From IMG/VR virus record IMGVR_UViG_2660238524_000005: a stretch of 47,221 bases of DNA. One strand, 5' to 3'. Positions 835 to 47,221 of this stretch are shown here, in pieces. Within the stretch, counting starts at the first letter, position 1. The number at the start of each line of letters is the position of its first letter. The notes beneath the pieces were generated by a model. It was given only the letters and a program-made list of their open reading frames with translations. It did no database searches and had not been told where the DNA came from. Both the position numbers and the translations under genes were made by a program. Source of the DNA: a virus (taxonomy: Duplodnaviria > Heunggongvirae > Uroviricota > Caudoviricetes).

Positions 835-1602
835 ATGCCACAGCCGGCGCTAAAAGCGAACGAAATCAGCAGTGAATTAATCGATATTCTTGCGGCTCGG
901 AATACGATATCCGAAATGCAATATTTTCGTTATATCAGAGATATAGAAAAGTTGCGCGACAGCGCATCTGAGGACTATCTCAAAGCGTTGGCTAATGGTG
1001 CTTTTGGGCGTAAAGATACTGCAGTTGCATTCTTTGAAGAAGCATTGAAGCATAACAACCTGATCATTGCTCAAAATTATGTAGTTTATCTCAACGATTA
1101 CGGCAGCTTCCGTGAAGTTGAACAAGTGGTAAATCGATTAGTTGAACGTTATAACTCCCCTACGATGCTGTCCCATGCATGGGAAGCTAACTTGTTCTTG
1201 GGGCGTATTGACAAAGCGCTCTACTATGCTGAGAGATTGATAAGTATGGTAGATGAAAAGGAGGCTGAATTGGTTAAGCACCTCGCAGCCACAGCACTGG
1301 CCCAATCCACGACCTTCAAAAGTGCAACTGGAATTACTGATGAAGAACTACAGGATATTGCAAACCGCATAGTGGATATCATGGCTGACCATAAAGTTAG
1401 TCCTGTTGCTATGTCTTTCTGCTCTATCCCTGAAGAGCGTACGTCATCATATGTCATGGCAGTTAATACTGAAGATTCTGATGTTCTCTCTGATATGAAC
1501 TTGGATATAGCATTTTCTCTTGCAGAAAATGAAAGTTTGATTGGAAAACCCTTCAGCGTATGGTTTGAAGGGCGTTTGGAGGAACCTGCGCGTGCCAGTT
1601 AA
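835..1602 (+). CDS. Hypothetical protein, first gene of AT-rich two-gene cargo operon
   Basis: 255-aa ORF, SD AAAGGTGA 5 nt upstream of ATG; protein-like composition; no family recognised. Confidence 0.6.
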   Translation: MPQPALKANEISSELIDILAARNTISEMQYFRYIRDIEKLRDSASEDYLKALANGAFGRKDTAVAFFEEALKHNNLIIAQNYVVYLNDYGSFREVEQVVNRLVERYNSPTMLSHAWEANLFLGRIDKALYYAERLISMVDEKEAELVKHLAATALAQSTTFKSATGITDEELQDIANRIVDIMADHKVSPVAMSFCSIPEERTSSYVMAVNTEDSDVLSDMNLDIAFSLAENESLIGKPFSVWFEGRLEEPARAS

Positions 1603-1975
1603 TAGTTCCGATTTTATCGCTTTCGCAAAAGATTGTGAAAAGCGTAACGACGAAATTGGTTACAGAAACGCTGTCGCACGTGCGTATTATGGTGCTTATC
1701 ACCACGTACTTCCGTGTTTGACCATGGGGCCGAAAGAAAGTCACCAAGGCCTCATTGACTATCTTGTTAACGATGCTTGGAAGGGTAACGAACCTTTTGA
1801 AAAAAGAGACTTAATTGGTTTGGGGTATGCTCTTCAATCGCTTAAGGATCAGAGAATAGTTTGTGATTACAGACTTAACGACACTATTACGCCAACCCAA
1901 TCAAGCACCGCGATTAAGACTGCAGAGAAATTAATCCAGCGTTGCGCTAATATGACCAAGTCTAAAGCGTCCTAA
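1594..1975 (+). CDS. Small hypothetical protein with R-x6-H motif (HEPN-like?), translationally coupled to upstream gene
   Basis: GTG start with SD GGAGG 7 nt upstream, overlapping the stop of the 835-1602 ORF; motif RAYYGAYH; ORF track gives 1541..1975 from an upstream TTG. Confidence 0.5.
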
Positions 1976-1980
1976 TCCCC

Positions 1981-2008
1981 AAAATTGGCCTCATTTGAGG
2001 CCAATTTT
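1981..2008. terminator. Strong bidirectional hairpin terminator closing the two-gene operon
   Basis: AAAATTGGCCTCA tt TGAGGCCAATTTT, perfect 13-bp inverted repeat flanked by A- and T-runs, 6 nt after stop. Confidence 0.55.
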
Positions 2009-2034
2009 ATTATGCATTGTATTTAATTTCACCG

Positions 2035-2400
2035 TGCGGAAGCATTACCCAATCATATGGTTCCGCGTATAAATTTTCGTTGATTTCGCGTCGCTGTGGG
2101 CTATGAGCCCTTGTGGTCTACTCCCTGTTTATCAAACAAAATGCAGCTAGTGCGCGTATTTTGTGGAATGTGGGGGCGCAGCTCCATCGTCAAATTATTA
2201 CACAAGCCTAACGAATCACGGGGCAATGAAAAGTATGGCTAAGATAGGCAGGTGCGGATACCTCTTTACTGCGTTTGTTATTACGCTCGGTATACGGTGA
2301 ACGATATACGGGCAGGCAACGTTATCGCGACTGTTATCAATAATACGTTTCAGTTTGTCCTCGAACTACATCACAACCGGCTTGAAAACTAATTACTGGA
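2035..2400 (-). pseudogene. Degraded remnant of a tyrosine-integrase 3' region (paralogous to the intact int at 3553-4737)
   Basis: Nucleotide blocks align by eye with int 3608-3920 (e.g. GTATAAATTTT..GATTTCGC.TCGCT.TG and CCTCTTTACTGCGTTT); minus-strand translation gives ...KLKRIIDNSRDNVACPYIVHRIP then loses frame; no ORF of 60 aa or more. Confidence 0.55.
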
Positions 2401-2458
2401 TTTTGTGCCTCCATAATCATATGATTTAAAATGTTATTTTATAAAAAAGGAGTTGTAT

Positions 2459-3415
2459 ATGACCAATTTGTATAAGTTTATGGGAGCGGATATAATTGAT
2501 AAATTGATGATGGATGAAACACATATAGGAATAAAATTCTCTCATTTACATGAATATAATGATCCCTATGAGTTTTTCCTTACTATTGATTTTAATCGCG
2601 GTTCTGATGAGTTAGCATTTTACAATGAAATGATTGGCATGGTTACAAAACAACCAGCAACTTGTTTTACGAAAAGCCCTGTGATACCACCTATGTGGGC
2701 ACATTATGCAGGTAATTCTTCTGGTTTTGTAATAGAGATTAATGAGGAGAAGTTTAAAAAGTATTTGGATGAAATCGGCTTCCAGGATCATAGTTCAATA
2801 GCAGATGTTGAATATAAAGATTCTCCAGATACAGGTATTGAAGACATTCTGGCGAGAGCATTTCATATCTGTAAACCTCGTTATATCTACTGGCTACAAT
2901 CCTGTATAATGACAGCCGCATATTTGACAAAACAAACTTGCTGGAGTTATGAGCAGGAACGTCGCGTAATAATTAATGAGAAAGCACTTACTAAACTGAA
3001 TGACAATCTTATGCTCCTTCCGGTACCGATTAATTGTATAACTGGAGTTATAGTTGGGCACAAATCAAATGATTTATTAAAGCAGAAAATTCAATCTTTA
3101 GCTAAAAAGGCTAAATGTAGATATTTCGAAATGGTAATAGGAAAAACAACAACTACACCATTTCTTTTATCTCAAAATCTCAAATCACACCAATTTATTA
3201 ATGGCAATATAATACCTGCATCAAGGCAATGTAAAAAATGTTATGAGCCTTTAAACATGGAAAATAAAGTTTGTGGCTGGTGTGGAATTACTAATCATGA
3301 TGTGAAAATGGCAGAGTACCGTAATTCATTTCGAATGATAGCCAACTATGGTGGGCTGGATAAATATATATCATCCATGAATAAGATTACTGAAGAGTAT
3401 AATAAGGGTAAATAA
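2459..3415 (+). CDS. DUF2971-family protein with C-terminal CxxC...CxxC zinc-ribbon-like motif
   Basis: LYKF...NDPYEF and PPMWAHYAGNSSGFVIEI motifs characteristic of DUF2971 (from memory); CKKCYEP...CGWCG near C-terminus; SD AGGAG 6 nt before ATG 2459; strongly AT-rich. Confidence 0.65.
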   Translation: MTNLYKFMGADIIDKLMMDETHIGIKFSHLHEYNDPYEFFLTIDFNRGSDELAFYNEMIGMVTKQPATCFTKSPVIPPMWAHYAGNSSGFVIEINEEKFKKYLDEIGFQDHSSIADVEYKDSPDTGIEDILARAFHICKPRYIYWLQSCIMTAAYLTKQTCWSYEQERRVIINEKALTKLNDNLMLLPVPINCITGVIVGHKSNDLLKQKIQSLAKKAKCRYFEMVIGKTTTTPFLLSQNLKSHQFINGNIIPASRQCKKCYEPLNMENKVCGWCGITNHDVKMAEYRNSFRMIANYGGLDKYISSMNKITEEYNKGK

Positions 3416-3552: not shown

Positions 3553-4737
3553 CTAACCGGTTTTAATTTCTCCATGAGGGACAACAATCCAATCTATATG
3601 ATTTTTAGTATAAATTTTAGTAGATTTCGCATCGCTATGTGCCATTCGTCCCTGCGGATCAATCCCTTGTTTATCAAATAGGTGAGCTGCCAAAGCTCTT
3701 ATTTCATGGAATGTAGGTCTTTGTTCCATTGCTAGATGATTGCATAGTCCGAGTTTGTCTCGCACGGAAGAGAATGACCGACTCAAATAATCTGGTGCAA
3801 CTTGAGTTGGGTGCGAAACCTCTTTACTGCGTTTAACATGCCGTTCTGGGATTCTATGAACGACAAAGGGACTGGCCACATTGTCACGGCTATTGTCAAT
3901 TATCCGTTTCAATTCTTCACCAATTGGTATTGCAACATGTGATGCCTCCTTTTTTTGTACTTTTTGCCTATGGATGTATAGTGTACCATATATGCCATTT
4001 TGTGGTTGTTCGAACCAAACACATCCACATAAACCGTCTTTAGGTTCGCGAATTGAGTAACGGATTCGCGATACTTCGAGTCGTGCATGTGTAGTCTGCA
4101 ATGCTAGGTCCATTGCTGTTCTTAACCATGGTGCAGCGGCCTGCCTGATAGCTATAAAATGCTCGAGTGACAGGCGCCGTCTTTTCTTCTCATCAGTCCT
4201 ACGCATTTTTTTTCTGATGGCCGGGTTATCCTGCATTAGTGATTCATCGACCGCATAAGAGAACAACTTTTTAAGAAAGCTGACCTTTCTGTTCTGCACA
4301 TTTGCGGATGCGCTGGCATGATATTTGTTGATGTAGGCATTAACGTGTTCAAGTTCGATATCGCATGCCGGAACATTTACGAAAAACGCTTTTACGCGTA
4401 GAGCGTCATTTTTCCAGTCATCTAAGGTACTCTGGGAAGGTCGTTCGTCTTCGATAATTCTGGCCATTATGTGATCGACATGTTCAGCAAATGGTTTTGC
4501 TTCTCCGGTGACCCCGCCAGATTCTCTAATAAGATTATCCACTGATGGGTATAATTCTGATCGCATCCTCAGGTTGTACTCTCTGGCGATTGCAACGGCT
4601 ATTGCCCGATCCTTACCTATATTTTTCTTTTTTCCGGTAATAAGTGTGAATTTATAAACACCTCGATCTTTATCAAAAACCAGATAATCAGGAAGATGTC
4701 TGTATTCTTTTTTACGTGGCCTTGCCGCCATGGTCAT
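3553..4737 (-). CDS. int: Phage integrase (tyrosine recombinase)
   Basis: 394 aa; C-terminal catalytic region with conserved H-x-x-R and terminal Tyr context (...HEIRALAAHLF...AHSDAKSTKIYTK); adjacent to att core and overlapped by xis. Confidence 0.9.
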   Translation of the reverse strand: MTMAARPRKKEYRHLPDYLVFDKDRGVYKFTLITGKKKNIGKDRAIAVAIAREYNLRMRSELYPSVDNLIRESGGVTGEAKPFAEHVDHIMARIIEDERPSQSTLDDWKNDALRVKAFFVNVPACDIELEHVNAYINKYHASASANVQNRKVSFLKKLFSYAVDESLMQDNPAIRKKMRRTDEKKRRRLSLEHFIAIRQAAAPWLRTAMDLALQTTHARLEVSRIRYSIREPKDGLCGCVWFEQPQNGIYGTLYIHRQKVQKKEASHVAIPIGEELKRIIDNSRDNVASPFVVHRIPERHVKRSKEVSHPTQVAPDYLSRSFSSVRDKLGLCNHLAMEQRPTFHEIRALAAHLFDKQGIDPQGRMAHSDAKSTKIYTKNHIDWIVVPHGEIKTG

Positions 4738-4943: not shown

Positions 4944-5004
4944 GGCTGTTTCTCCACTTAACCCGCTGCACACGGGCAGTAATATCAAATTTCAGTCCTG
5001 ATAA

Positions 5005-5220
5005 TTAATTTTGTTCTCTGGTTGCTACCTGTTTAATTGGCCTGATGCTGTCCAGGAGCAGTCGGCGGCGCGTATTTTCTGCAAAGTGGCGGCGTCCGGT
5101 TTCTTTGTGGTAAAACTCGTTTTCTCCGACGACCCACATCCGCTTTGTCTGGTGCAGTTTTTTTACCTGCGGACCGTTTCGGGTAATAACAATTCCTGTA
5201 TGAGTTTTTATCACGCTCAT
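5005..5220 (-). CDS. Small hypothetical phage protein
   Basis: 71-aa ORF with 4-nt overlap to upstream gene in early-left operon. Confidence 0.45.
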   Translation of the reverse strand: MSVIKTHTGIVITRNGPQVKKLHQTKRMWVVGENEFYHKETGRRHFAENTRRRLLLDSIRPIKQVATREQN

Positions 5221-5579
5221 TTCTTATTCTCCGGTGCTTTCGGCATTACTGCCCAGTGAGTGATATTGACGTTTTCAAGGTCCCCGACCTGAAATGTCCA
5301 CTGCCATTCTCCGGTTTCTTTTTGTCCCCAGGTGTACCAGAGAGAACGCCAGCCAATTAGCCAGCCTTCTCCGTTAGCATCAAATAACAGAACACTTTCA
5401 TTTGCAGGTGGCAGTTCAGCTGACACTGGTATTATTTTGTTTTCCAGTGCCGCACATTTAGCTTCAAGCGCGTCGAATTTACGTACTAGGTACTCAGCAT
5501 TTGTTTCGTTCACTTTCAGATCTCGCGGTACACATTTCCCGCGAAGAAACCCTTCCATTTCGAAAACATTCATGCGCAT
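5217..5579 (-). CDS. DUF551-like phage protein
   Basis: C-terminal motif ...GEGWLIGW...ITHWAVMPKAPE resembles DUF551 (from memory). Confidence 0.5.
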   Translation of the reverse strand: MRMNVFEMEGFLRGKCVPRDLKVNETNAEYLVRKFDALEAKCAALENKIIPVSAELPPANESVLLFDANGEGWLIGWRSLWYTWGQKETGEWQWTFQVGDLENVNITHWAVMPKAPENKK

Positions 5580-6106
5580 TTGCGTAACTCCGATAACTCG
5601 TTAAAGCGTTCCATAAACATCCCGTAGGCATGGCCCGGTGCCAGTGGAATCACGTTGAACATCTCTGTTGCCGGGATACCTTCCAGTACAGGCCAGAAAG
5701 AGCCATCATCAAGCCCGAGATCGCGGCGTTCGGTTGCCAGCATGATGAGATCGGCATATTTCACGGGCGTACTCATAACTGGGGGTAACCCGTATTTCTC
5801 ACGGATTACGGCGTCTATTTTTTCTTCCATTTGTTTATAGTCAGGAAGAAGGCGTTTCAGTGGTGCGGGAATGTCCTGGCAATACGCTTCTGTTGCATCA
5901 TGCATTAACGCTTCAAAAGCAAATTCCTGCGGCACCAACTGGCTGCAAAGAACCGCATGTTGGGCGACGCTGTAGAAGTGCGAAAGATGACCGGCAAAGC
6001 GACAGATATTTGAAAGGGAAACCGCGATATCGTTAATATCGATGTCGTCTTTATTTATCCTGTCATAATAAAAATGCTTCCCGGAAAAAGTTTTAATAAA
6101 TGACAT
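5570..6106 (-). CDS. HD-domain phosphohydrolase (YfdR-like 5'-deoxynucleotidase)
   Basis: H...HD metal-binding motifs (FAGHLSHFYSVAQHAV...LMHDATEA); start at second ATG (MSFIKTF) with SD GGAGAA gives 178 aa. Confidence 0.75.
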   Translation of the reverse strand: MSFIKTFSGKHFYYDRINKDDIDINDIAVSLSNICRFAGHLSHFYSVAQHAVLCSQLVPQEFAFEALMHDATEAYCQDIPAPLKRLLPDYKQMEEKIDAVIREKYGLPPVMSTPVKYADLIMLATERRDLGLDDGSFWPVLEGIPATEMFNVIPLAPGHAYGMFMERFNELSELRKCA

Positions 6107-19682: not shown

Positions 19683-19922
19683 ATGAATATATTAGATGAT
19701 TTTGAAAAACATGCTGAAATCTATGGGTATCTCAAGGTATTGAAAATGGGAGCGATGCACTTAGGTGCAGACTTCAAAATTTCAGAGGCATTCTCACATG
19801 ATAATGTGCTACCTCAATTGCAAGCATTCTATAAAAAAAAATATATAGAGAAAGAAGCACTTGAAGCGATAAACTGGTGGTCGTCACTGTCGCCGGAGTT
19901 ACGAAACAAATTCGACAATTAG
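19683..19922 (+). CDS. Small AT-rich hypothetical protein (moron) after lysis cassette
   Basis: 79-aa ORF followed by a terminator. Confidence 0.45.
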   Translation: MNILDDFEKHAEIYGYLKVLKMGAMHLGADFKISEAFSHDNVLPQLQAFYKKKYIEKEALEAINWWSSLSPELRNKFDN

Positions 19923-41104: not shown

Positions 41105-44100
41105 ATGGCAGTAAAAATTTCAGGTGTACTGAAAGACGGCACAGGAAAACCGGTACAGAACTGCACAATCCAGCTGAAAGCAAAACGTAACAGTACCACG
41201 GTGGTGGTGAACACGCTGGCATCTGAAAATCCGGATGAAGCCGGGCGTTACAGTATGGACGTTGAGTACGGTCAGTACAGCGTTATTCTGTTGGTGGAAG
41301 GATTCCCGCCGTCACATGCCGGGACCATCACAGTGTATGAAGATTCCCGACCCGGTACGCTGAATGATTTTCTCGGTGCCATGACGGAGGATGATGCCCG
41401 TCCGGAGGCACTGCGCCGTTTTGAGCTGATGGTGGAAGAGGTGGCGCGTAACGCGTCCGTGGTGGCACAGAACACGGCAGCCGCGAAGAAGTCAGCCAGT
41501 GATGCCAGCACATCAGCCCGTGAGGCGGCAACCCATGCGACTGATGCTGCAGGCTCAGCACGCGCAGCCAGCACGTCAGCCGGACAGGCCGCGTCGTCGG
41601 CTCAGTCAGCGACTTCCAGCGCAGGAACGGCATCAACAAAGGCTACTGAAGCATCAAAAAGTGCTGCCGCTGCAGAGTCCTCAAAAAGCGCGGCAGCTAC
41701 CAGTGCCAGTGCCGCGAAAACGTCAGAAACGAATGCTGCAGCGTCACAACAATCAGCAGCCACTTCTGCATCCACCGCAACTACGAAAGCGTCAGAAGCT
41801 GCCACCTCAGCCCGGGATGCGGCGGCTTCAAAAGAGGCGGCAAAATCATCAGAAACGAACGCATCCTCGAGCGCCAGTAACGCAGCTTCCTCGGCAACAG
41901 CGGCAGGAAATTCCGCGAAGGCGGCAAAAACGTCAGAGACGAACGCCAGGTCTTCTGAAACGGCAGCGGGACAGAGCGCCTCGGCTGCGGCAGGCTCAAA
42001 AACAGCGGCTGCGTCGTCTGCCAGTGCAGCGTCAACAAGTGCCGGGCAGGCCTCAGCCAGTGCCACCGCCGCCGGAAAATCGGCAGAAAGCGCCGCATCG
42101 TCTGCTTCAACAGCCACAACGAAGGCTGACGAAGCCACTGAACAGGCCAGCGCAGCAGCGAGGTCTGCTTCCGCAGCGAAGACATCCGAAACGAACGCGA
42201 AAGCGTCGGAAACCAGCGCAGAATCCTCAAAAACGGCTGCCGCATCGTCAGCCAGTTCGGCGTCGTCATCGGCATCATCTGCGTCTGCTTCAAAAGATGA
42301 GGCGACCAGACAGGCGTCAGCAGCGAAGAGCAGCGCCACGACGGCATCCACGAAGGCAACAGAGGCGGCAGGCAGTGCGACGGCAGCATCTCAGAGCAAA
42401 ACTACTGCTGAATCCGCTGCGACCCGTGCGGAAGCTGCTGCTGATCGTGCTGAAGAGATTGCCGGTGCAGTTGCGATGGAAGACGCAAGCCTTACAACTA
42501 AAGGTGTTGTGAAACTTAGCAGTGCTGTTGATAGCACCAGTGAATCGCTGGCCGCAACGCCAAAAGCAGTTAAAGCAGCCAATGACAATGCGAATAGCAG
42601 GGTGCCATCTAACCGAAAAGTTAACGGAAAAGCACTGACTGCGGATATAACATTAACGCCGAAAGATATTGGTACTTTAAATTCAGTAACGATGTCTTTC
42701 TCTGGCGGGGCTGGGTGGTTCAAACTGGCTACGGTTACCATGCCACAAGCGAGTTCCATCGTTTACATCGCATTGATTGGTGGCGCTGGTTACAACGTCG
42801 GTTCCCCACATCAGGCAGGCATTTCAGAACTGGTTCTACGAGCAGGCAATGGAAACCCCAAAGGAATTACCGGGGCTTTGTGGAAGCGTACAGCCGTCGG
42901 ATTAACGAATTTCGCCTGGATCAACACATCCGGCGATACATATGATATTTACGTTGAGATTGGCAATTATGCGACGAGTGTAAATATCCATTGGGATTGT
43001 ACTGCAAATGCGTCAGTTTCTGTTTATACCTCGCCAACATATTCAGCGAGTAAGCCTTCCAGCGTTACCTATGGTGTTGTTTATACGATGTATAGCTCAC
43101 ATCAGAAACCTACACCATCAGATATTGGAGCACTGCCAACAACCGGAGGAACAGTTTCAGGTCCGTTGTCTGTTACAGGTGGATTAACTGGTTCATTGAA
43201 TGGTAATGCAAGTACAGCCACGAAATTGCAGACGGCAAGATCTATCGGTGGAGTTGTTTTCGACGGTTCTGCAAATATTAACCTTCCAGGTGTAAACACT
43301 ACGGGTAATCAGAACACCACTGGTAATGCTGCAACTGCTACAAAACTTCAGACTGCAAGAAAAATATCCGGTGTTCCATTTGATGGTTCTACTGATATCA
43401 CTTTAACCGCCGCGCATGTGGCTGCTTTTGCCAGAAGGGCAACGGATACATATGCCGATGCGGATGGGGGCGTTCCCTGGAATGCCGAATCAGGCGCTTA
43501 TAAGGTCACCCGCTCTGGCGACAGCTATATTCTGGTTAACTTCTATACCGGAGTCGGAAGTTGCCGGACCTTGCAGATGAAGGCGCATTACAGAAATGGT
43601 GGTCTGTTCTACCGTTCTTCAAGAGACGGTTATGGTTTTGAGGAAGACTGGGCAGAAGTTTATACCTCGAAAAATCTTCCACCAGAAAGCTACCCAGTCG
43701 GCGCACCAATCCCGTGGCCATCAGATACCGTTCCGTCTGGTTATGCCCTGATGCAGGGGCAGACTTTTGACAAATCTGCCTACCCGAAACTTGCAGCCGC
43801 TTATCCGTCAGGCGTGATCCCTGATATGCGTGGCTGGACGATTAAGGGCAAGCCCGCCAGTGGTCGTGCCGTATTGTCTCAGGAACAGGACGGCATAAAA
43901 TCGCATACCCACAGCGCCAGCGCATCCAGTACTGATTTGGGGACGAAAACCACATCGTCGTTTGATTACGGCACTAAATCCACGAATAACACTGGTGCGC
44001 ATACCCATAGTGTTAGCGGTACGGCTGCTTCAGCCGGTGCACATACCCATTCGATGACATTTGTTTCAGGTGGTTCCAGTGGTGCTCCGGGAAGTGGATC

Positions 44101-44332
44101 ACCTGATTATTCTAAATACAGTGTTAACACTTCTTCTGCAGGCGCTCATACGCACTCTGTATCGGGTACTGCTGCAAGCGCAGGTGCACACGCACATACT
44201 GTAGGTATTGGTGCGCATACGCACTCGGTTGCGATTGGTTCACATGGACACACCATCACCGTTAACGCTGCTGGTAACGCGGAAAACACCGTCAAAAACA
44301 TCGCATTTAACTATATTGTGAGGCTTGCATAA
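41105..44332 (+). CDS. stf: Side tail fiber protein (Stf-like), intact
   Basis: N-terminus [26 protein letters not shown] and C-terminus ...[19 protein letters not shown] match lambda Stf from memory; Ala/Ser/Thr-rich shaft with repeated KTSETNA units; C-terminal GAHTHS/HxH repeats. Confidence 0.8.
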
Positions 44333-44916
44333 TGGCATTCAGAATGAGTGAACAAGCACGGACCATAAAAATTTATAATCTGCTGTCCGGAACTAATGAA
44401 TTTATTGGTGAAGGTGATGCATATATTCCGCCTCATACAGGTCTGCCAGCAAACAGTACCGACATTGCACCGCCAGATATTCCAGCTGGCTTCGTGGCTG
44501 TTTTCAACAGTGATGAGTTATCGTGGCATCTCGTTGAAGATCATCGGGGTAAAACGGTTTATGACGTGGCTTCCGGCGACGCGTTATTTATTTCTGAACT
44601 CGGTCCGTTACCGGAAAATGTCACCTGGTTATCCCCGGAAGGGGAGTTTCAGAAGTGGAACGGCACAGCCTGGGTGAAAGATGCAGAAGCAGAAAAACTG
44701 TTCCGGATCCGGGAGGCGGAAGAAACAAAAAACAGCCTGATGCAGGCAGCGAATGAGCATATTGCGCCACTTCAGGATGCTGTAGATCTGGAAATCGCAA
44801 CGGAGGAAGAAAACTCGTTGCTGGAAGCCTGGAAAAAGTATCGGGTGTTGCTGAACCGTGTTGATACATCAGTAGCACCGGATATTGAGTGGCCTGCTGT
44901 CCCTGTTATGGAGTAA
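44332..44916 (+). CDS. tfa: Tail fiber assembly protein (Tfa)
   Basis: 194 aa; MAFRMSEQ...[10 protein letters not shown] closely resembles lambda Tfa (from memory). Confidence 0.85.
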
Positions 44917-45019
44917 TCGTTTTGAGATACGCCGCATACACGTTGTATGCAATAACGTGCTGCGGCTTGGTAAATTTTAGCTAGTTTCAGCAGGAGACAT
45001 AAAAAACTTCAATATAAGA

Positions 45020-45822
45020 TTAAGCATCACGTATTGCCAACCTGATTTTTGACTGATACCAATTGGGGCCTTCTGCAATTATTTCTTCCTCAACATGCAT
45101 GATGGGATGCATTTCAATTTCAGAGTTTTTGACTTTTAGATCTAGTCCATATTTTTTTGAAATTTGTAAAACTTCATTTTTGAAATCCTTATCTGCGAAA
45201 GGTGAAATCCTTATTTCTTCCAACAGATTATTAAGAGATACAGGGACTAGTTTTCCCTTTACAGGTGGAGTGTTAAAGGTATTCTCTTGAAAAATAGCTC
45301 TAAACTCTTTTTCGTGTTCGAAAGATGGTCTCTTGTTAAAGAATACATCTGATTCTGGATTGTATTGTTTTATCCAGAAATTTTTGACGTATTTTACGTG
45401 TTTTAATTGTAGTTTGTTTAGATTATTATTTTCAAGTTGGCTTTGGAGGTTTTTTTCTTTGATTTTATGACAACGCCTTTAGCGGGGTTTTTACAATACA
45501 GCTTCCACATAGCTTCAGATTCATGTTCGTTACAATGCCAGCAACTTATATATGTCCTCTCGCTTATTTCCTTAAGTGTCTTTAAATTGAATGCCATGAA
45601 AGGCTCTAAGTCCATGCCGGCACCATGAGTAGCGCATAGTTTTTCCTGTGTCTCAATGAATTTTTTATAGCCAGTATGTCCCCAAGCAAATTCACCTTCG
45701 AACGGATCTTCAAAATTTTTTGCTGAGCAAAAAAATAAAGCATTTTGTTCGAGTAACATAGAGAATTTCTCTATGTCAAGATATCGCCATATATACTCAG
45801 TGTGCATGATAGCTCCTTGCAA
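45020..45822 (-). pseudogene. DUF2971-family gene disrupted by a frameshift at an A7 homopolymer (or needing a -1 shift)
   Basis: N-terminal 134-aa ORF has DUF2971 motifs (LFFCSAKNFEDPFEG; SEAMWKLY...KGVVIKS) and stops after the A7 run (plus-strand T7 at 45450-45456); the -1 frame is open through both segments down to 45020. Confidence 0.55.
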
Positions 45823-46018
45823 TATAACTATTTCTATCTGTTCATTTGTACTTAAAAAGGATTGAGTAGCCCGAACAGTTCTATCCGTAAATATACCAGA
45901 TAGAAGAGTTGTACAATAACAAATCCTCCGTATAAGAACCAGCCATAATAGTCTGGTTCTTAAGGTTTTTTTGTTCGAGGGGTTTTAACCTACGATTCGT
46001 CCCCATATCGGCGATAAA

Positions 46019-47221
46019 TTAGGCTTGTACCAACGCTTCTGTTTCTGTGAGTGAAATCTGATAGCGTTTTACTGCCTCAGCAAAGGCGTGCGCGGCATCT
46101 GCATTTGATACCATATATTCTTCAGTTACCCCTGTTTGAGAATGGAAAGTAATATTTCCATAAATGCAAATAGGGATTTGGTAGTTGTCTTTAAAACGAC
46201 GGTCTGGTGAGCCATTCTTATTCGTTTTCGCCCATGTATAACCATCTATGCGTGAGTCACTGGGAACACCTTCTTCCTCATGGAATCTTAGATATTCTGA
46301 ACTAATTTGTAATTCGCGTAAATCAATCAGAGCGAATGCTCCATCGGCTCGTGGTATGACTGCAACTCCAGGATAAAGCAAAATATCGTCTCCATTTGCA
46401 TTTTCAAACCTCATCGCACGCCCTGTAAATTGAATGAGATCCGTTGAACTAAAATCAAAGGTAACTGGGTGACGATTAACAGACCGGGTTGCTAATGTTC
46501 TTTCAGCAAACTGGTCTGTAGCTTTATCTGCAGTAATATCCCATTTTTTGACACTCGATTTTAACATATCAAATGCATGGACCATCGCTGCATATGCGCG
46601 CTGTGAAGCATCACTGCTCTCGAATGTTATGGCTATTTTTGTGCTGTCTTCCCATGAAACTAGGCGAGATATCTCAGCTTGGGTTAGGGGGAGTAGTGTC
46701 TCAAGTTCTGCGATGCGTCGTTTGTAAAACCAACGGAATAGACTTGATTTGCGTCGAGCCAGCTCGCTTTTTTGTTTTGATTCTTCGGCAAGAGCCTCTT
46801 GAAGATCTGCTTTTATCTCTGCTCTTTGTTCTCGTGCTTTAGCAATCAAATCTCGTAAAGGTAAAAGGGAGGTACTTGTAAGGACTTCTACCGAAGCGCT
46901 GGATATTTCATTCATGCCAGCTACAGGCATATATATTTTAGCGTTCGATGGTGTGTTTTCTGGAGATGACCCAGACCCCAAATGAGGTTCTGTAGGGGCT
47001 GGATTTAATGGATTGGTAACTGAGTATCCATCATCATAGGGCAAGGTAGGTGTAGTATAAGATAAGCCTGTGCCCGGTAATCCGACAGTTGCTCTAACCC
47101 CTTTTTTACCAACATTGACAGTTGCGCCAGGCATGCCAATGCTTGCACTTATTCCACGCTTGCCAATGTTGAGTCGAACGCCAGGAAATAAAGTAAAGGT
47201 TTGTCTGAAACGAAGAGACAT
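46019..47221 (-). CDS. DUF4236-domain protein (N-terminal Gly/Lys-rich repeat domain + about 340-aa unknown C-terminal domain); start at window edge
   Basis: N-terminus MSLRFRQTFTLFPGVRLNIGKRGISASIGMPGATVNVGKKGVRATVGLPGTGLSY matches DUF4236 (from memory); ATG is the last codon of the window, so the true start may lie outside. Confidence 0.5.
   Translation of the reverse strand: MSLRFRQTFTLFPGVRLNIGKRGISASIGMPGATVNVGKKGVRATVGLPGTGLSYTTPTLPYDDGYSVTNPLNPAPTEPHLGSGSSPENTPSNAKIYMPVAGMNEISSASVEVLTSTSLLPLRDLIAKAREQRAEIKADLQEALAEESKQKSELARRKSSLFRWFYKRRIAELETLLPLTQAEISRLVSWEDSTKIAITFESSDASQRAYAAMVHAFDMLKSSVKKWDITADKATDQFAERTLATRSVNRHPVTFDFSSTDLIQFTGRAMRFENANGDDILLYPGVAVIPRADGAFALIDLRELQISSEYLRFHEEEGVPSDSRIDGYTWAKTNKNGSPDRRFKDNYQIPICIYGNITFHSQTGVTEEYMVSNADAAHAFAEAVKRYQISLTETEALVQA

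What the first reader, a model, noticed from the sequence alone, without database searches (positions are those of the whole stretch)
45020..45822. Second DUF2971 paralog at the far end of the prophage, broken at an A7 homopolymer
The N-terminal 134 codons carry DUF2971 motifs and stop 12 codons after an A7 run (plus-strand T7 at 45450-45456). The -1 frame is open through both segments down to 45020 and reads like a genuine continuation. A single-base indel in the homopolymer separates an intact gene of about 265-300 codons from the current state. This could be a sequencing error, a recent pseudogenisation, or a phase-variable or frameshift-regulated gene.
Basis: seen in the sequence. Interest (0 to 1): 0.55.

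Follow-up and report, generated by a model that had tools for sequence, protein, structure and literature searches.

The report
Frameshift-broken prophage ADP-ribosyltransferase-like gene
A prophage accessory gene of the DUF2971 family (predicted DarT-like ADP-ribosyltransferase fold, a candidate anti-phage defence protein) is knocked out here by loss of one A from an A8 run; this is a real, inherited and recurrent mutation in E. coli, so an ordinary pseudogene rather than a regulated frameshift.

Summary
On the minus strand a 129-codon ORF (ATG 45807; 134 codons from TTG 45822) stops at 45418. The -1 frame is open from 45478 to 45020. The A7 run (45450-45456) is the only homopolymer in the overlap. 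Adding one A gives a 262-aa protein that matches full-length homologues end to end, passes Pfam DUF2971 and matches PADLOC candidate PDC-S31. A 98%-identical homologue models with high confidence as a DarT-like ADP-ribosyltransferase fold.

Family-invariant residues, including the E166-x-E168 motif, lie after the break, so the encoded product should be inactive.

Of 122 complete E. coli genomes with the locus, 35 carry A7, 2 carry A6 and the rest appear to carry in-frame A8. A7 sits on two SNP backgrounds, which implies at least two slippage events. Broken copies gather further indels and mostly non-synonymous changes, while intact copies differ mostly synonymously. Six related Ec-050 genome records are all A7. 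No downstream RNA structure exists, and homologues elsewhere are single ORFs.

Verdict: a hotspot loss-of-function allele. It is not a sequencing error, a programmed frameshift or a convincing phase switch. Interest is low.

The parts
45418..45807 (-). Present-day ORF: the N-terminal 129 codons of the DUF2971 gene (ATG 45807-45805) plus stop TAA 45420-45418. The last 10 codons (TSKANLKIII) are out-of-frame read-through.
   Evidence: The fragment alone has no Pfam hit. RefSeq annotates a 113-aa 'hypothetical protein' from the internal ATG 45759.
45813..45818 (-). Shine-Dalgarno AAGGAG, 5 nt upstream of ATG 45807.
   Evidence: Read from the sequence. Homologues of 262 aa start at the same Met.
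45450..45456 (-). A7 homopolymer (plus-strand T7). The intact allele has A8, read AAG AAA AAA AAC = K117 K118 K119 N120. This is the site of the 1-bp deletion.
45020..45478 (-). -1-frame continuation encoding the C-terminal 143 residues (N120 to A262) of the intact protein. It includes invariant Y140, K159, E166-x-E168, R170 and P203. Stop TAA is at 45022-45020. No start codon occurs in this frame before TTG 45223.
45729..45735 (-). Gene-sense T7 run, a second slippage site. It is T8 in four genomes that already carry A7 or A6.
45937..45965 (.). Hairpin between the DUF4236 and DUF2971 genes. It matches 28 of 29 bases of the hairpin just downstream of tRNA-Pro. On the + strand the hairpin is followed by AAGG and T7.
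   Evidence: sequence; homopolymer list.
46019..47221 (-). Upstream neighbour, a 400-aa DUF4236 protein. It is always adjacent in the E. coli lambdoid prophages examined but is not a conserved partner of the family.
2453..3415 (+). Distant second DUF2971 / PDC-S31 family gene, intact, just outside the integrase gene at the other end of the island.

Best explanation
The locus is a horizontally acquired, AT-rich accessory gene at the tail-fibre end of a lambdoid prophage integrated next to tRNA-Pro.

Intact form. The gene encodes a 262-aa DUF2971 protein with a DarT-like ADP-ribosyltransferase fold. By analogy with Aristaios (a lactococcal DUF2971 single-gene abortive-infection system) and the PADLOC candidate PDC-S31, it most likely acts alone. 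The proposed action is to use NAD+ to ADP-ribosylate a nucleic-acid or protein target when a phage infects, blocking that phage. This function is inferred, not shown.

This window. Replication slippage has shortened the in-frame A8 run to A7. Translation leaves the frame after K119 and stops ten codons later. The product lacks Y140, K159, the E166-x-E168 motif and R170, and no internal start can supply the C-terminal half. The allele is therefore a loss-of-function pseudogene.

Population picture. The A8 run is a mutational hotspot and the same loss has happened at least twice in E. coli prophages. Once broken, the gene drifts.
For: Shown:
- The repaired protein equals full-length homologues of the same length: 98% identity over 262 aa with 480 member sequences; 81% in Enterobacter; 51-53% in Pseudomonas.
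- Pfam, PADLOC and PHROG profiles align across the break.
- Invariant residues lie downstream of the break.
- Census: 122 of 5426 complete E. coli genomes carry the locus. 35 have the exact A7 81-mer, 52 the exact A8 82-mer, and 2 have A6. All 27 sampled full-length 952-bp matches are annotated as intact DUF2971.
- A7 occurs on haplotype I (window, FORC_042, O25b:H4, AR202.2) and on haplotype II (CT282, CCUG 73778). A8 occurs on the same two haplotypes (OHT76-1 and 4114; C51 and N2250). CT282 and C51 are identical over 2305 bp except for the run.
- Extra lesions occur only in broken copies: T8 at 45729-45735 in 65COLEC, PSJ-29, 98218 and DETEC-P169; A6 in the last two; a 1-bp deletion at 45142 in CUVET20-1667.
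- Substitutions among intact haplotypes are 10 synonymous to 3 non-synonymous. Those private to A7 lineages are 1 to 5, including W7L and L78P (Fisher two-sided p = 0.04).
- Six Ec-050 genome records (the original Ec-050 assembly plus T0, T5 and T20 derivatives) are all A7.

From the literature:
- DUF2971 is predicted to be a DarT/AbiGi-like ADP-ribosyltransferase family with a conserved Tyr and an ExE motif (PMC12522546).
- Aristaios, a 316-aa DUF2971 protein, is an experimentally confirmed single-gene Abi-like system that interferes with phage transcription (PMC11381338 and PMC13064643).

Single-gene status:
- The Enterobacter soli homologue stands alone after gpD and ogr at the end of a P2-like prophage.
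- None of 83 homologue loci has a DUF4236 gene within 4-5 kb.
Against: - No read data were available, so an A7/A8 miscall in this particular assembly cannot be formally excluded.
- The two-origin inference could also be produced by one origin plus a short recombination tract. The breakpoints would have to fall between 45766 and 45457 on one side and between 45449 and 45388 on the other.
- The synonymous / non-synonymous contrast rests on 19 substitutions from 20 sampled loci, polarised by parsimony.
- A low level of full-length protein from transcriptional or ribosomal slippage on the A7 run is not excluded.
- Neither defence activity nor ADP-ribosyltransferase activity has been shown for this E. 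coli subfamily. It is only distantly related to Aristaios, and I did not compare it with the Aristaios sequence directly.
Confidence: 0.8

Rival explanations
1. Phase-variable contingency gene. The A8/A7 tract switches reversibly by slipped-strand mispairing, turning a costly or toxic defence enzyme on and off in the lysogen population.
For: - Tract length is polymorphic (A8, A7, A6) and A7 sits on two haplotypes, so the tract mutates recurrently.
- A second run in the same gene (T7 or T8) also varies.
- The gene product is plausibly toxic, since it has a DarT-like fold.
Against: - No reversion is evident: each broken lineage is consistent with one-way loss.
- Six related Ec-050 genome records are all A7.
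- Broken copies accumulate further frameshifts and radical substitutions, which a switchable gene should not tolerate.
- The run is not conserved in the family. The Enterobacter homologue has an in-frame A7 followed by CA, and distant homologues lack the KKK.
- From general knowledge: runs of 7-8 nt mutate orders of magnitude more slowly than classical contingency tracts, and E. coli rarely uses them.
Confidence: 0.08
2. Sequencing or assembly error. The source genome really has A8 and the A7 is a homopolymer miscall.
For: - Homopolymer indels are the commonest long-read assembly error (general knowledge).
- Some genomes show odd combinations of run lengths.
Against: - The exact A7 81-mer is present in 35 complete genomes from many laboratories and hosts, in clonally coherent groups such as the ST167-like dog, cat and human isolates.
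- Proteins ending ...KSKKKTSKANLKIII were called from independent read-archive assemblies (P0020).
- A7 lineages carry their own private SNPs.
Confidence: 0.05
3. Programmed recoding. The A7 allele is expressed as full-length protein through -1 ribosomal frameshifting or RNA-polymerase slippage on the A run, which sets a low dose of a toxic enzyme.
For: - The 0-frame reads AAG AAA AAA ACC. A tRNA-Lys slipping back one base on the run would give exactly the A8 product KKKNLQ.
- Lysine codon runs are slip-prone in E. coli (general knowledge).
Against: - The 80 nt downstream have no structure (MFE -3.4 kcal/mol, z -0.33; 68 of 200 shuffles fold as well).
- No Shine-Dalgarno-like element lies within about 20 nt upstream.
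- Most alleles and all sampled homologues are single in-frame ORFs, so the frameshifted state is derived rather than conserved.
- Broken alleles decay.
Confidence: 0.03

Closest known systems
Aristaios (Lactococcus plasmid pUCCL641_199), a single-gene Abi-like antiphage system with a DUF2971 domain
   Same: It has the same Pfam domain (PF11185), a predicted ADP-ribosyltransferase fold, and a stand-alone gene on a mobile element.
   Different: - Aristaios is 316 aa against 262 aa here, from Gram-positive plasmids rather than an enterobacterial prophage.
- I made no direct sequence comparison, and no defence phenotype is known for this subfamily.
- The copy in this window is frameshifted and should be inactive.
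PADLOC candidate system PDC-S31
   Same: The repaired protein matches four of its HMMs (best E 1e-21) and the window's other DUF2971 gene matches five (best E 4e-22).
   Different: PDC-S31 is a computational candidate. I found no paper naming it. The actual ORF in the window is only the N-terminal half.
DarT of DarTG toxin-antitoxin systems (ssDNA ADP-ribosyltransferase)
   Different: - There is no detectable sequence similarity to any solved structure.
- Large helical inserts are present.
- No DarG-like macrodomain antitoxin lies next to the gene; the neighbours are the tail-fibre assembly and DUF4236 genes.
- The target is unknown.
Homopolymer frameshift pseudogenes in prophage accessory (moron) genes
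   Same: There is a one-base loss in an A/T run, further decay afterwards, and a neighbouring DinI-like gene that is also frameshifted at the same integration site.
   Different: Nothing unusual, apart from recurrence on two haplotypes.

Membership tests
Pfam DUF2971 (PF11185) | Score above the curated gathering threshold (22 bits) | tested here: met
   The repaired 262-aa protein scores 29.4 bits over aa 100-170. The ORF as it stands in the window (129 aa) gives no hit. Membership therefore holds for the ancestral gene, not for the present product.
Pfam DUF2971 (PF11185) | Conserved catalytic-type motifs described for the family (conserved Tyr, ExE) | tested here: met
   Y104 and Y140 are conserved and E166-x-E168 is invariant across alignments of 28 and 52 sequences. 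The motifs are described in PMC12522546. Y140 and ExE lie after the break and are lost in the window's product.
PADLOC PDC-S31 | Match to the system's HMMs as a single gene | tested here: met
   PDLC04993 matches at E 1e-21 over aa 80-233, and three further models also match.
Aristaios-type single-gene Abi defence | Protects against phage when expressed alone, with an abortive-infection phenotype | not testable with these tools
   Only context is available. The gene sits at prophage ends (lambdoid tail-fibre end; after ogr in a P2-like prophage) and has no conserved partner.
DarTG toxin-antitoxin | DarT-like ADP-ribosyltransferase fold | tested here: met
DarTG toxin-antitoxin | Adjacent DarG macrodomain antitoxin | tested here: not met
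   The neighbours are the tail-fibre assembly protein (Caudo_TAP) and a DUF4236 protein. Neither shows a macrodomain. The Enterobacter homologue stands alone.
Programmed -1 frameshift sites | Slippery site plus a stimulatory element (downstream structure or upstream SD-like sequence) | tested here: not met
   The run could slip, but the 80 nt downstream fold no better than shuffles (z -0.33) and no SD-like element lies within about 20 nt upstream.
Programmed -1 frameshift sites | Frameshifted arrangement conserved among homologues | tested here: not met
   About 70% of E. coli copies are in frame. The homologues found are full-length, and the 80 loci kept from 489 species-level matches align in one contiguous segment.
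Simple-sequence contingency (phase-variable) loci | Tract-length polymorphism between strains | tested here: met
   A8, A7 and A6 all occur, and A7 sits on two haplotypes.
Simple-sequence contingency (phase-variable) loci | Reversible switching with function retained in OFF lineages | tested here: not met
   Six related Ec-050 genome records are all A7. OFF lineages carry extra frameshifts and 5 non-synonymous to 1 synonymous private changes. Direct switching rates could not be tested.

The most novel reading that the evidence does not exclude
The A8 run, together with the T7 run upstream, acts as a low-frequency on/off switch or an expression attenuator for a toxic DarT-like ADP-ribosyltransferase carried by E. 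coli prophages. Lysogen populations would then hedge between phage defence and the cost of the enzyme. Under this reading, A7 alleles are reservoirs that can revert, or that leak a little full-length protein by slippage.
Probability: 0.06. Interest if true: 0.55.

Novelty: new member of a known kind. Interest (0 to 1): 0.2.

Why it matters
There are three practical consequences.

- **Annotation.** RefSeq calls the broken copy a 113-aa "hypothetical protein" from an internal start rather than a DUF2971 pseudogene. Even for intact copies the annotated start is probably 16 codons too short.
- **Defence inventories.** Defence-system counts for strains with the A7 allele, including ST131 and ST167-like isolates, should not score this gene as functional.
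- **Biology.** A candidate single-gene ADP-ribosyltransferase-like defence protein is repeatedly lost at a homopolymer in E. coli prophages. This fits with such genes being costly or dispensable, and it offers natural on and off alleles (A8 versus A7 on otherwise identical DNA) for testing whether this subfamily defends against phage.

Beyond that the finding is ordinary.

Tried and rejected
- **RNA structure for programmed slippage.** I folded the 80 nt downstream of the run and found none.
- **Promoters and terminators.** The consensus scan of 44850-46150 found no more than chance.
- **NCBIfam.** No named family matched any of the three proteins.
- **Phage records.** There was no DNA match and only one weak protein match, 26% identity in an Acinetobacter phage. 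The gene is known from prophages, not from isolated phages.
- **Solved structures by sequence.** A profile of 52 homologues found nothing at E up to 10. The link to DarT rests on fold only.
- **Recent duplication.** The two DUF2971 genes in the window are about 20% identical, so I rejected a recent duplication.
- **DUF4236 as a partner.** I considered the DUF4236 neighbour as a functional partner or antitoxin and rejected it. It is absent from all 83 homologue loci in other species and from the Enterobacter P2-like context.
- **Split-gene complementation.** I rejected this because the -1 frame has no start codon before TTG 45223, which lies downstream of the ExE motif.
- **Structure prediction.** I used the 98%-identical P0001 instead.
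- **Literature.** A search for PDC-S31 found no papers.

Full report
**1. What is in the sequence**

On the minus strand, the ORF listing gives an ORF at 45418-45822 of 134 aa from TTG. The more likely start is ATG 45807-45805. It is preceded by AAGGAG at 45818-45813, and full-length homologues begin MHTEY at exactly this Met.

The 0-frame reads ...TCA AAG AAA AAA ACC TCC... and ends at TAA 45420-45418. The A7 run occupies 45456-45450, which is T7 on the plus strand.

The -1 frame has a TAA at 45481-45479 and is then open to TAA 45022-45020. Any event that joins the two frames must therefore fall between 45478 and 45421. The A run is the only homopolymer in that interval.

Adding one A gives AAG AAA AAA AAC CTC (KKKNL) and a 262-aa protein.
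- the start codon;
- the -1 frame is not open through the N-terminal part;
- the repaired length is 262 codons rather than 265-300.

**2. The continuation is genuine**

- The repaired protein passes Pfam DUF2971 (29.4 bits against a cut-off of 22). The matched stretch, aa 100-170, straddles the break. The 129-aa fragment alone matches nothing.
- PADLOC PDC-S31 models (best E 1e-21, aa 80-233) and PHROG 34615 (E 3e-30, aa 5-232) also align across the break.
- The protein database holds full-length relatives of the same size. These include a 98%-identical 262-aa cluster with 480 members, 79-82% relatives including Enterobacter soli, and 50-56% relatives in Pseudomonas and Herbaspirillum.
- In alignments of 28 and 52 sequences the invariant columns are D34, E37, C89, W90 and W101 before the break, and Y140, K159, E166, E168, R170 and P203 after it.
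- The KKK encoded by the run is not conserved in distant members.
- The Enterobacter soli gene reads AAG AAA AAA ACA CTC, an in-frame A7.

**3. What the intact gene is**

An AlphaFold2 model of the 98%-identical homologue is confident (pLDDT 93.2, pTM 0.85). Its best matches among solved structures are as follows.

| Method | Match | Score |
|---|---|---|
| Foldseek | top six hits, all DarT | E 1e-4 to 2e-3 |

This agrees with the literature:
- A published survey places DUF2971 in the ADP-ribosyltransferase superfamily next to DarT and AbiGi, with a conserved Tyr and an ExE motif (PMC12522546). I equate that ExE motif with E166-x-E168 by position and invariance; this is an inference.
- Aristaios, a 316-aa DUF2971 protein from a Lactococcus plasmid, is an experimentally confirmed single-gene Abi-like system that interferes with phage transcription (PMC11381338 and PMC13064643).

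The gene is AT-rich, at 34.5% GC against 49.8% for the window. It lies between the tail-fibre assembly gene and a DUF4236 gene.

In E. coli the block DinI-like / DUF4236 / DUF2971 / tfa / stf occurs at the end of lambdoid prophages in at least four chromosomal sites: tRNA-Pro next to yejM, prfC, the icd-iraM region, and near ibsA/yegL.

DUF4236 is not a family partner. The Enterobacter soli homologue stands alone after gpD and ogr at the end of a P2-like prophage. None of 83 homologue loci from other species has a DUF4236 gene within 4-5 kb.

The most likely function is therefore a stand-alone, NAD-dependent abortive-infection-type defence enzyme. This is inferred and not shown for this subfamily.

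**4. What the A7 state is**

*Census.* Of 5426 complete E. coli genomes, 122 carry the locus once each on the chromosome.

| Tract state | Genomes | Basis |
|---|---|---|
| Exact A7 81-mer | 35 | |
| Exact A8 82-mer | 52 | |
| A6 | 2 | |
| Differ from both test sequences within the 81/82-nt stretch | 33 | |

All 27 sampled full-length 952-bp matches are annotated as intact "DUF2971 domain-containing protein". The 33 unresolved genomes are therefore probably A8, but I did not check each one.

*Not an artefact.* The A7 allele is present in many unrelated assemblies and hosts. It also appears in proteins called from independent read-archive assemblies (P0020).

*Recurrent.* Over 2305 bp, two SNP backgrounds each carry both states.

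| Haplotype | Defining bases (45766 / 45388 / 45250 / 45007) | A7 carriers | A8 carriers |
|---|---|---|---|
| I | A / G / C / G | window, FORC_042, O25b:H4, AR202.2 | OHT76-1, 4114 |
| II | G / A / T / T | CT282, CCUG 73778 | C51, N2250 |

CT282 and C51 differ only at the run. More distant haplotypes (M3, AR_0077, SC418) and all sampled distant homologues are in frame, so A8 is ancestral. The simplest reading is at least two independent A8-to-A7 slippages. One origin plus a short recombination tract is the alternative.

*The broken gene decays*.
- 65COLEC and PSJ-29 add a T8 at the T7 run 45729-45735.
- 98218 and DETEC-P169 have T8 plus A6.
- CUVET20-1667 has lost a G at 45142.
- HCM-28C-2 has an IS1 between the DUF4236 and DUF2971 genes.

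The T8 states are each shared by genomes from different laboratories, so they are inherited.

*Selection.* Substitutions separating intact haplotypes are 10 synonymous to 3 non-synonymous. Those private to A7 lineages are 1 to 5 (W7L, L78P, A171T, D223V, P235L). Fisher's two-sided p is 0.04. The sample is small, but the direction is what relaxed selection predicts.

*Stability.* Six Ec-050 genome records (the original assembly plus T0, T5 and T20 derivatives) are all A7.

**5. Alternatives**

*Programmed -1 frameshifting or transcriptional slippage.* A tRNA-Lys slipping back on the run would indeed yield the A8 product. Against this:
- the downstream 80 nt do not fold better than shuffles (MFE -3.4 kcal/mol, z -0.33);
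- no Shine-Dalgarno-like sequence lies close upstream;
- the frameshifted state is a minority, derived state.

A trace of full-length protein cannot be excluded without an experiment.

*Phase variation.* Only the recurrent mutation supports it. The lack of reversion, the extra lesions, the non-synonymous drift and the non-conservation of the tract argue against it.

*Split-gene complementation.* This is excluded because the -1 frame has no start before TTG 45223, which lies beyond the ExE motif.

**6. Comparison with what is known, and verdict**

The ancestral gene is a member of Pfam DUF2971 and matches the PADLOC candidate PDC-S31. It works like Aristaios only by inference. It resembles DarT in fold but is not a DarTG system, because it has no DarG neighbour and no sequence-level similarity.

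The window's copy is a frameshift pseudogene of that gene. The finding is real and correctly read, but ordinary. Its value lies in three things:
- annotation, since RefSeq calls a 113-aa hypothetical protein from an internal ATG at 45759;
- not counting this copy as a functional defence gene;
- the natural A8/A7 allele pairs it provides for testing the subfamily.

Noticed in passing
window 45729-45735: The gene-sense T7 run near the 5' end of the DUF2971 gene is T8 in four genomes that already carry A7 or A6: 65COLEC and PSJ-29 on haplotype I, and 98218 and DETEC-P169 on haplotype II. It is a second slippage hotspot in the same gene.
   Followed up: partly
window 45937-45965 and 309-396: An 88-bp copy (91% identical) of the 3' end of tRNA-Pro plus its downstream hairpin lies at 309-396 and marks the far boundary of the island. 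A 29-bp stretch matching 28 of 29 bases of the hairpin part lies between the DUF4236 and DUF2971 genes. On the + strand the hairpin is followed by AAGG and T7, like an intrinsic terminator. It may be a relic of an older element boundary.
   Followed up: partly
beyond the window's right end; L001 4146-4401, L003 3738-3993: The DinI-like gene next to DUF4236 is annotated as frameshifted in every copy examined at the tRNA-Pro/yejM site, including those with an intact A8 DUF2971. It is intact at the prfC site. The lesion is a 1-bp deletion in a short A run, and FORC_042 additionally has an 8-bp tandem duplication.
   Followed up: partly
window 45757-45759 vs 45805-45807: RefSeq starts both intact and broken copies at the internal ATG 45759 (246 aa and 113 aa). 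The SD-preceded ATG 45807 and the 262-aa homologues indicate that the annotated start is 16 codons too short.
   Followed up: yes
window 835-3415: The second DUF2971 gene (2453-3415) lies outside the integrase gene (3553-4737). In O25b:H4 a recombinase fragment is annotated beside it, with two hypothetical proteins further on, one of which has weak TPR hits (835-1602). It may belong to an older islet at the same tRNA-Pro site rather than to the lambdoid prophage proper.
   Followed up: partly
L014-L016 (Enterobacter soli), gene at 5001-5789: An 81%-identical homologue sits alone directly after gpD and ogr at the end of a P2-like prophage. From memory, this is a position reported to hold defence genes in P2-like phages.
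   Followed up: partly
window 41099-44332: The side tail-fibre gene has a long Ala/Ser/Thr-rich low-complexity central region. In related prophages it varies in length (about 2.9-3.4 kb) or is replaced or truncated.
   Followed up: no
window 19833-19841: An A9 run is the longest homopolymer in the window. I did not examine its coding context.
   Followed up: no
L023 (HCM-28C-2) 559-1256: An IS1A element is inserted between the DUF4236 gene and the broken DUF2971 gene in one A7 genome.
   Followed up: no
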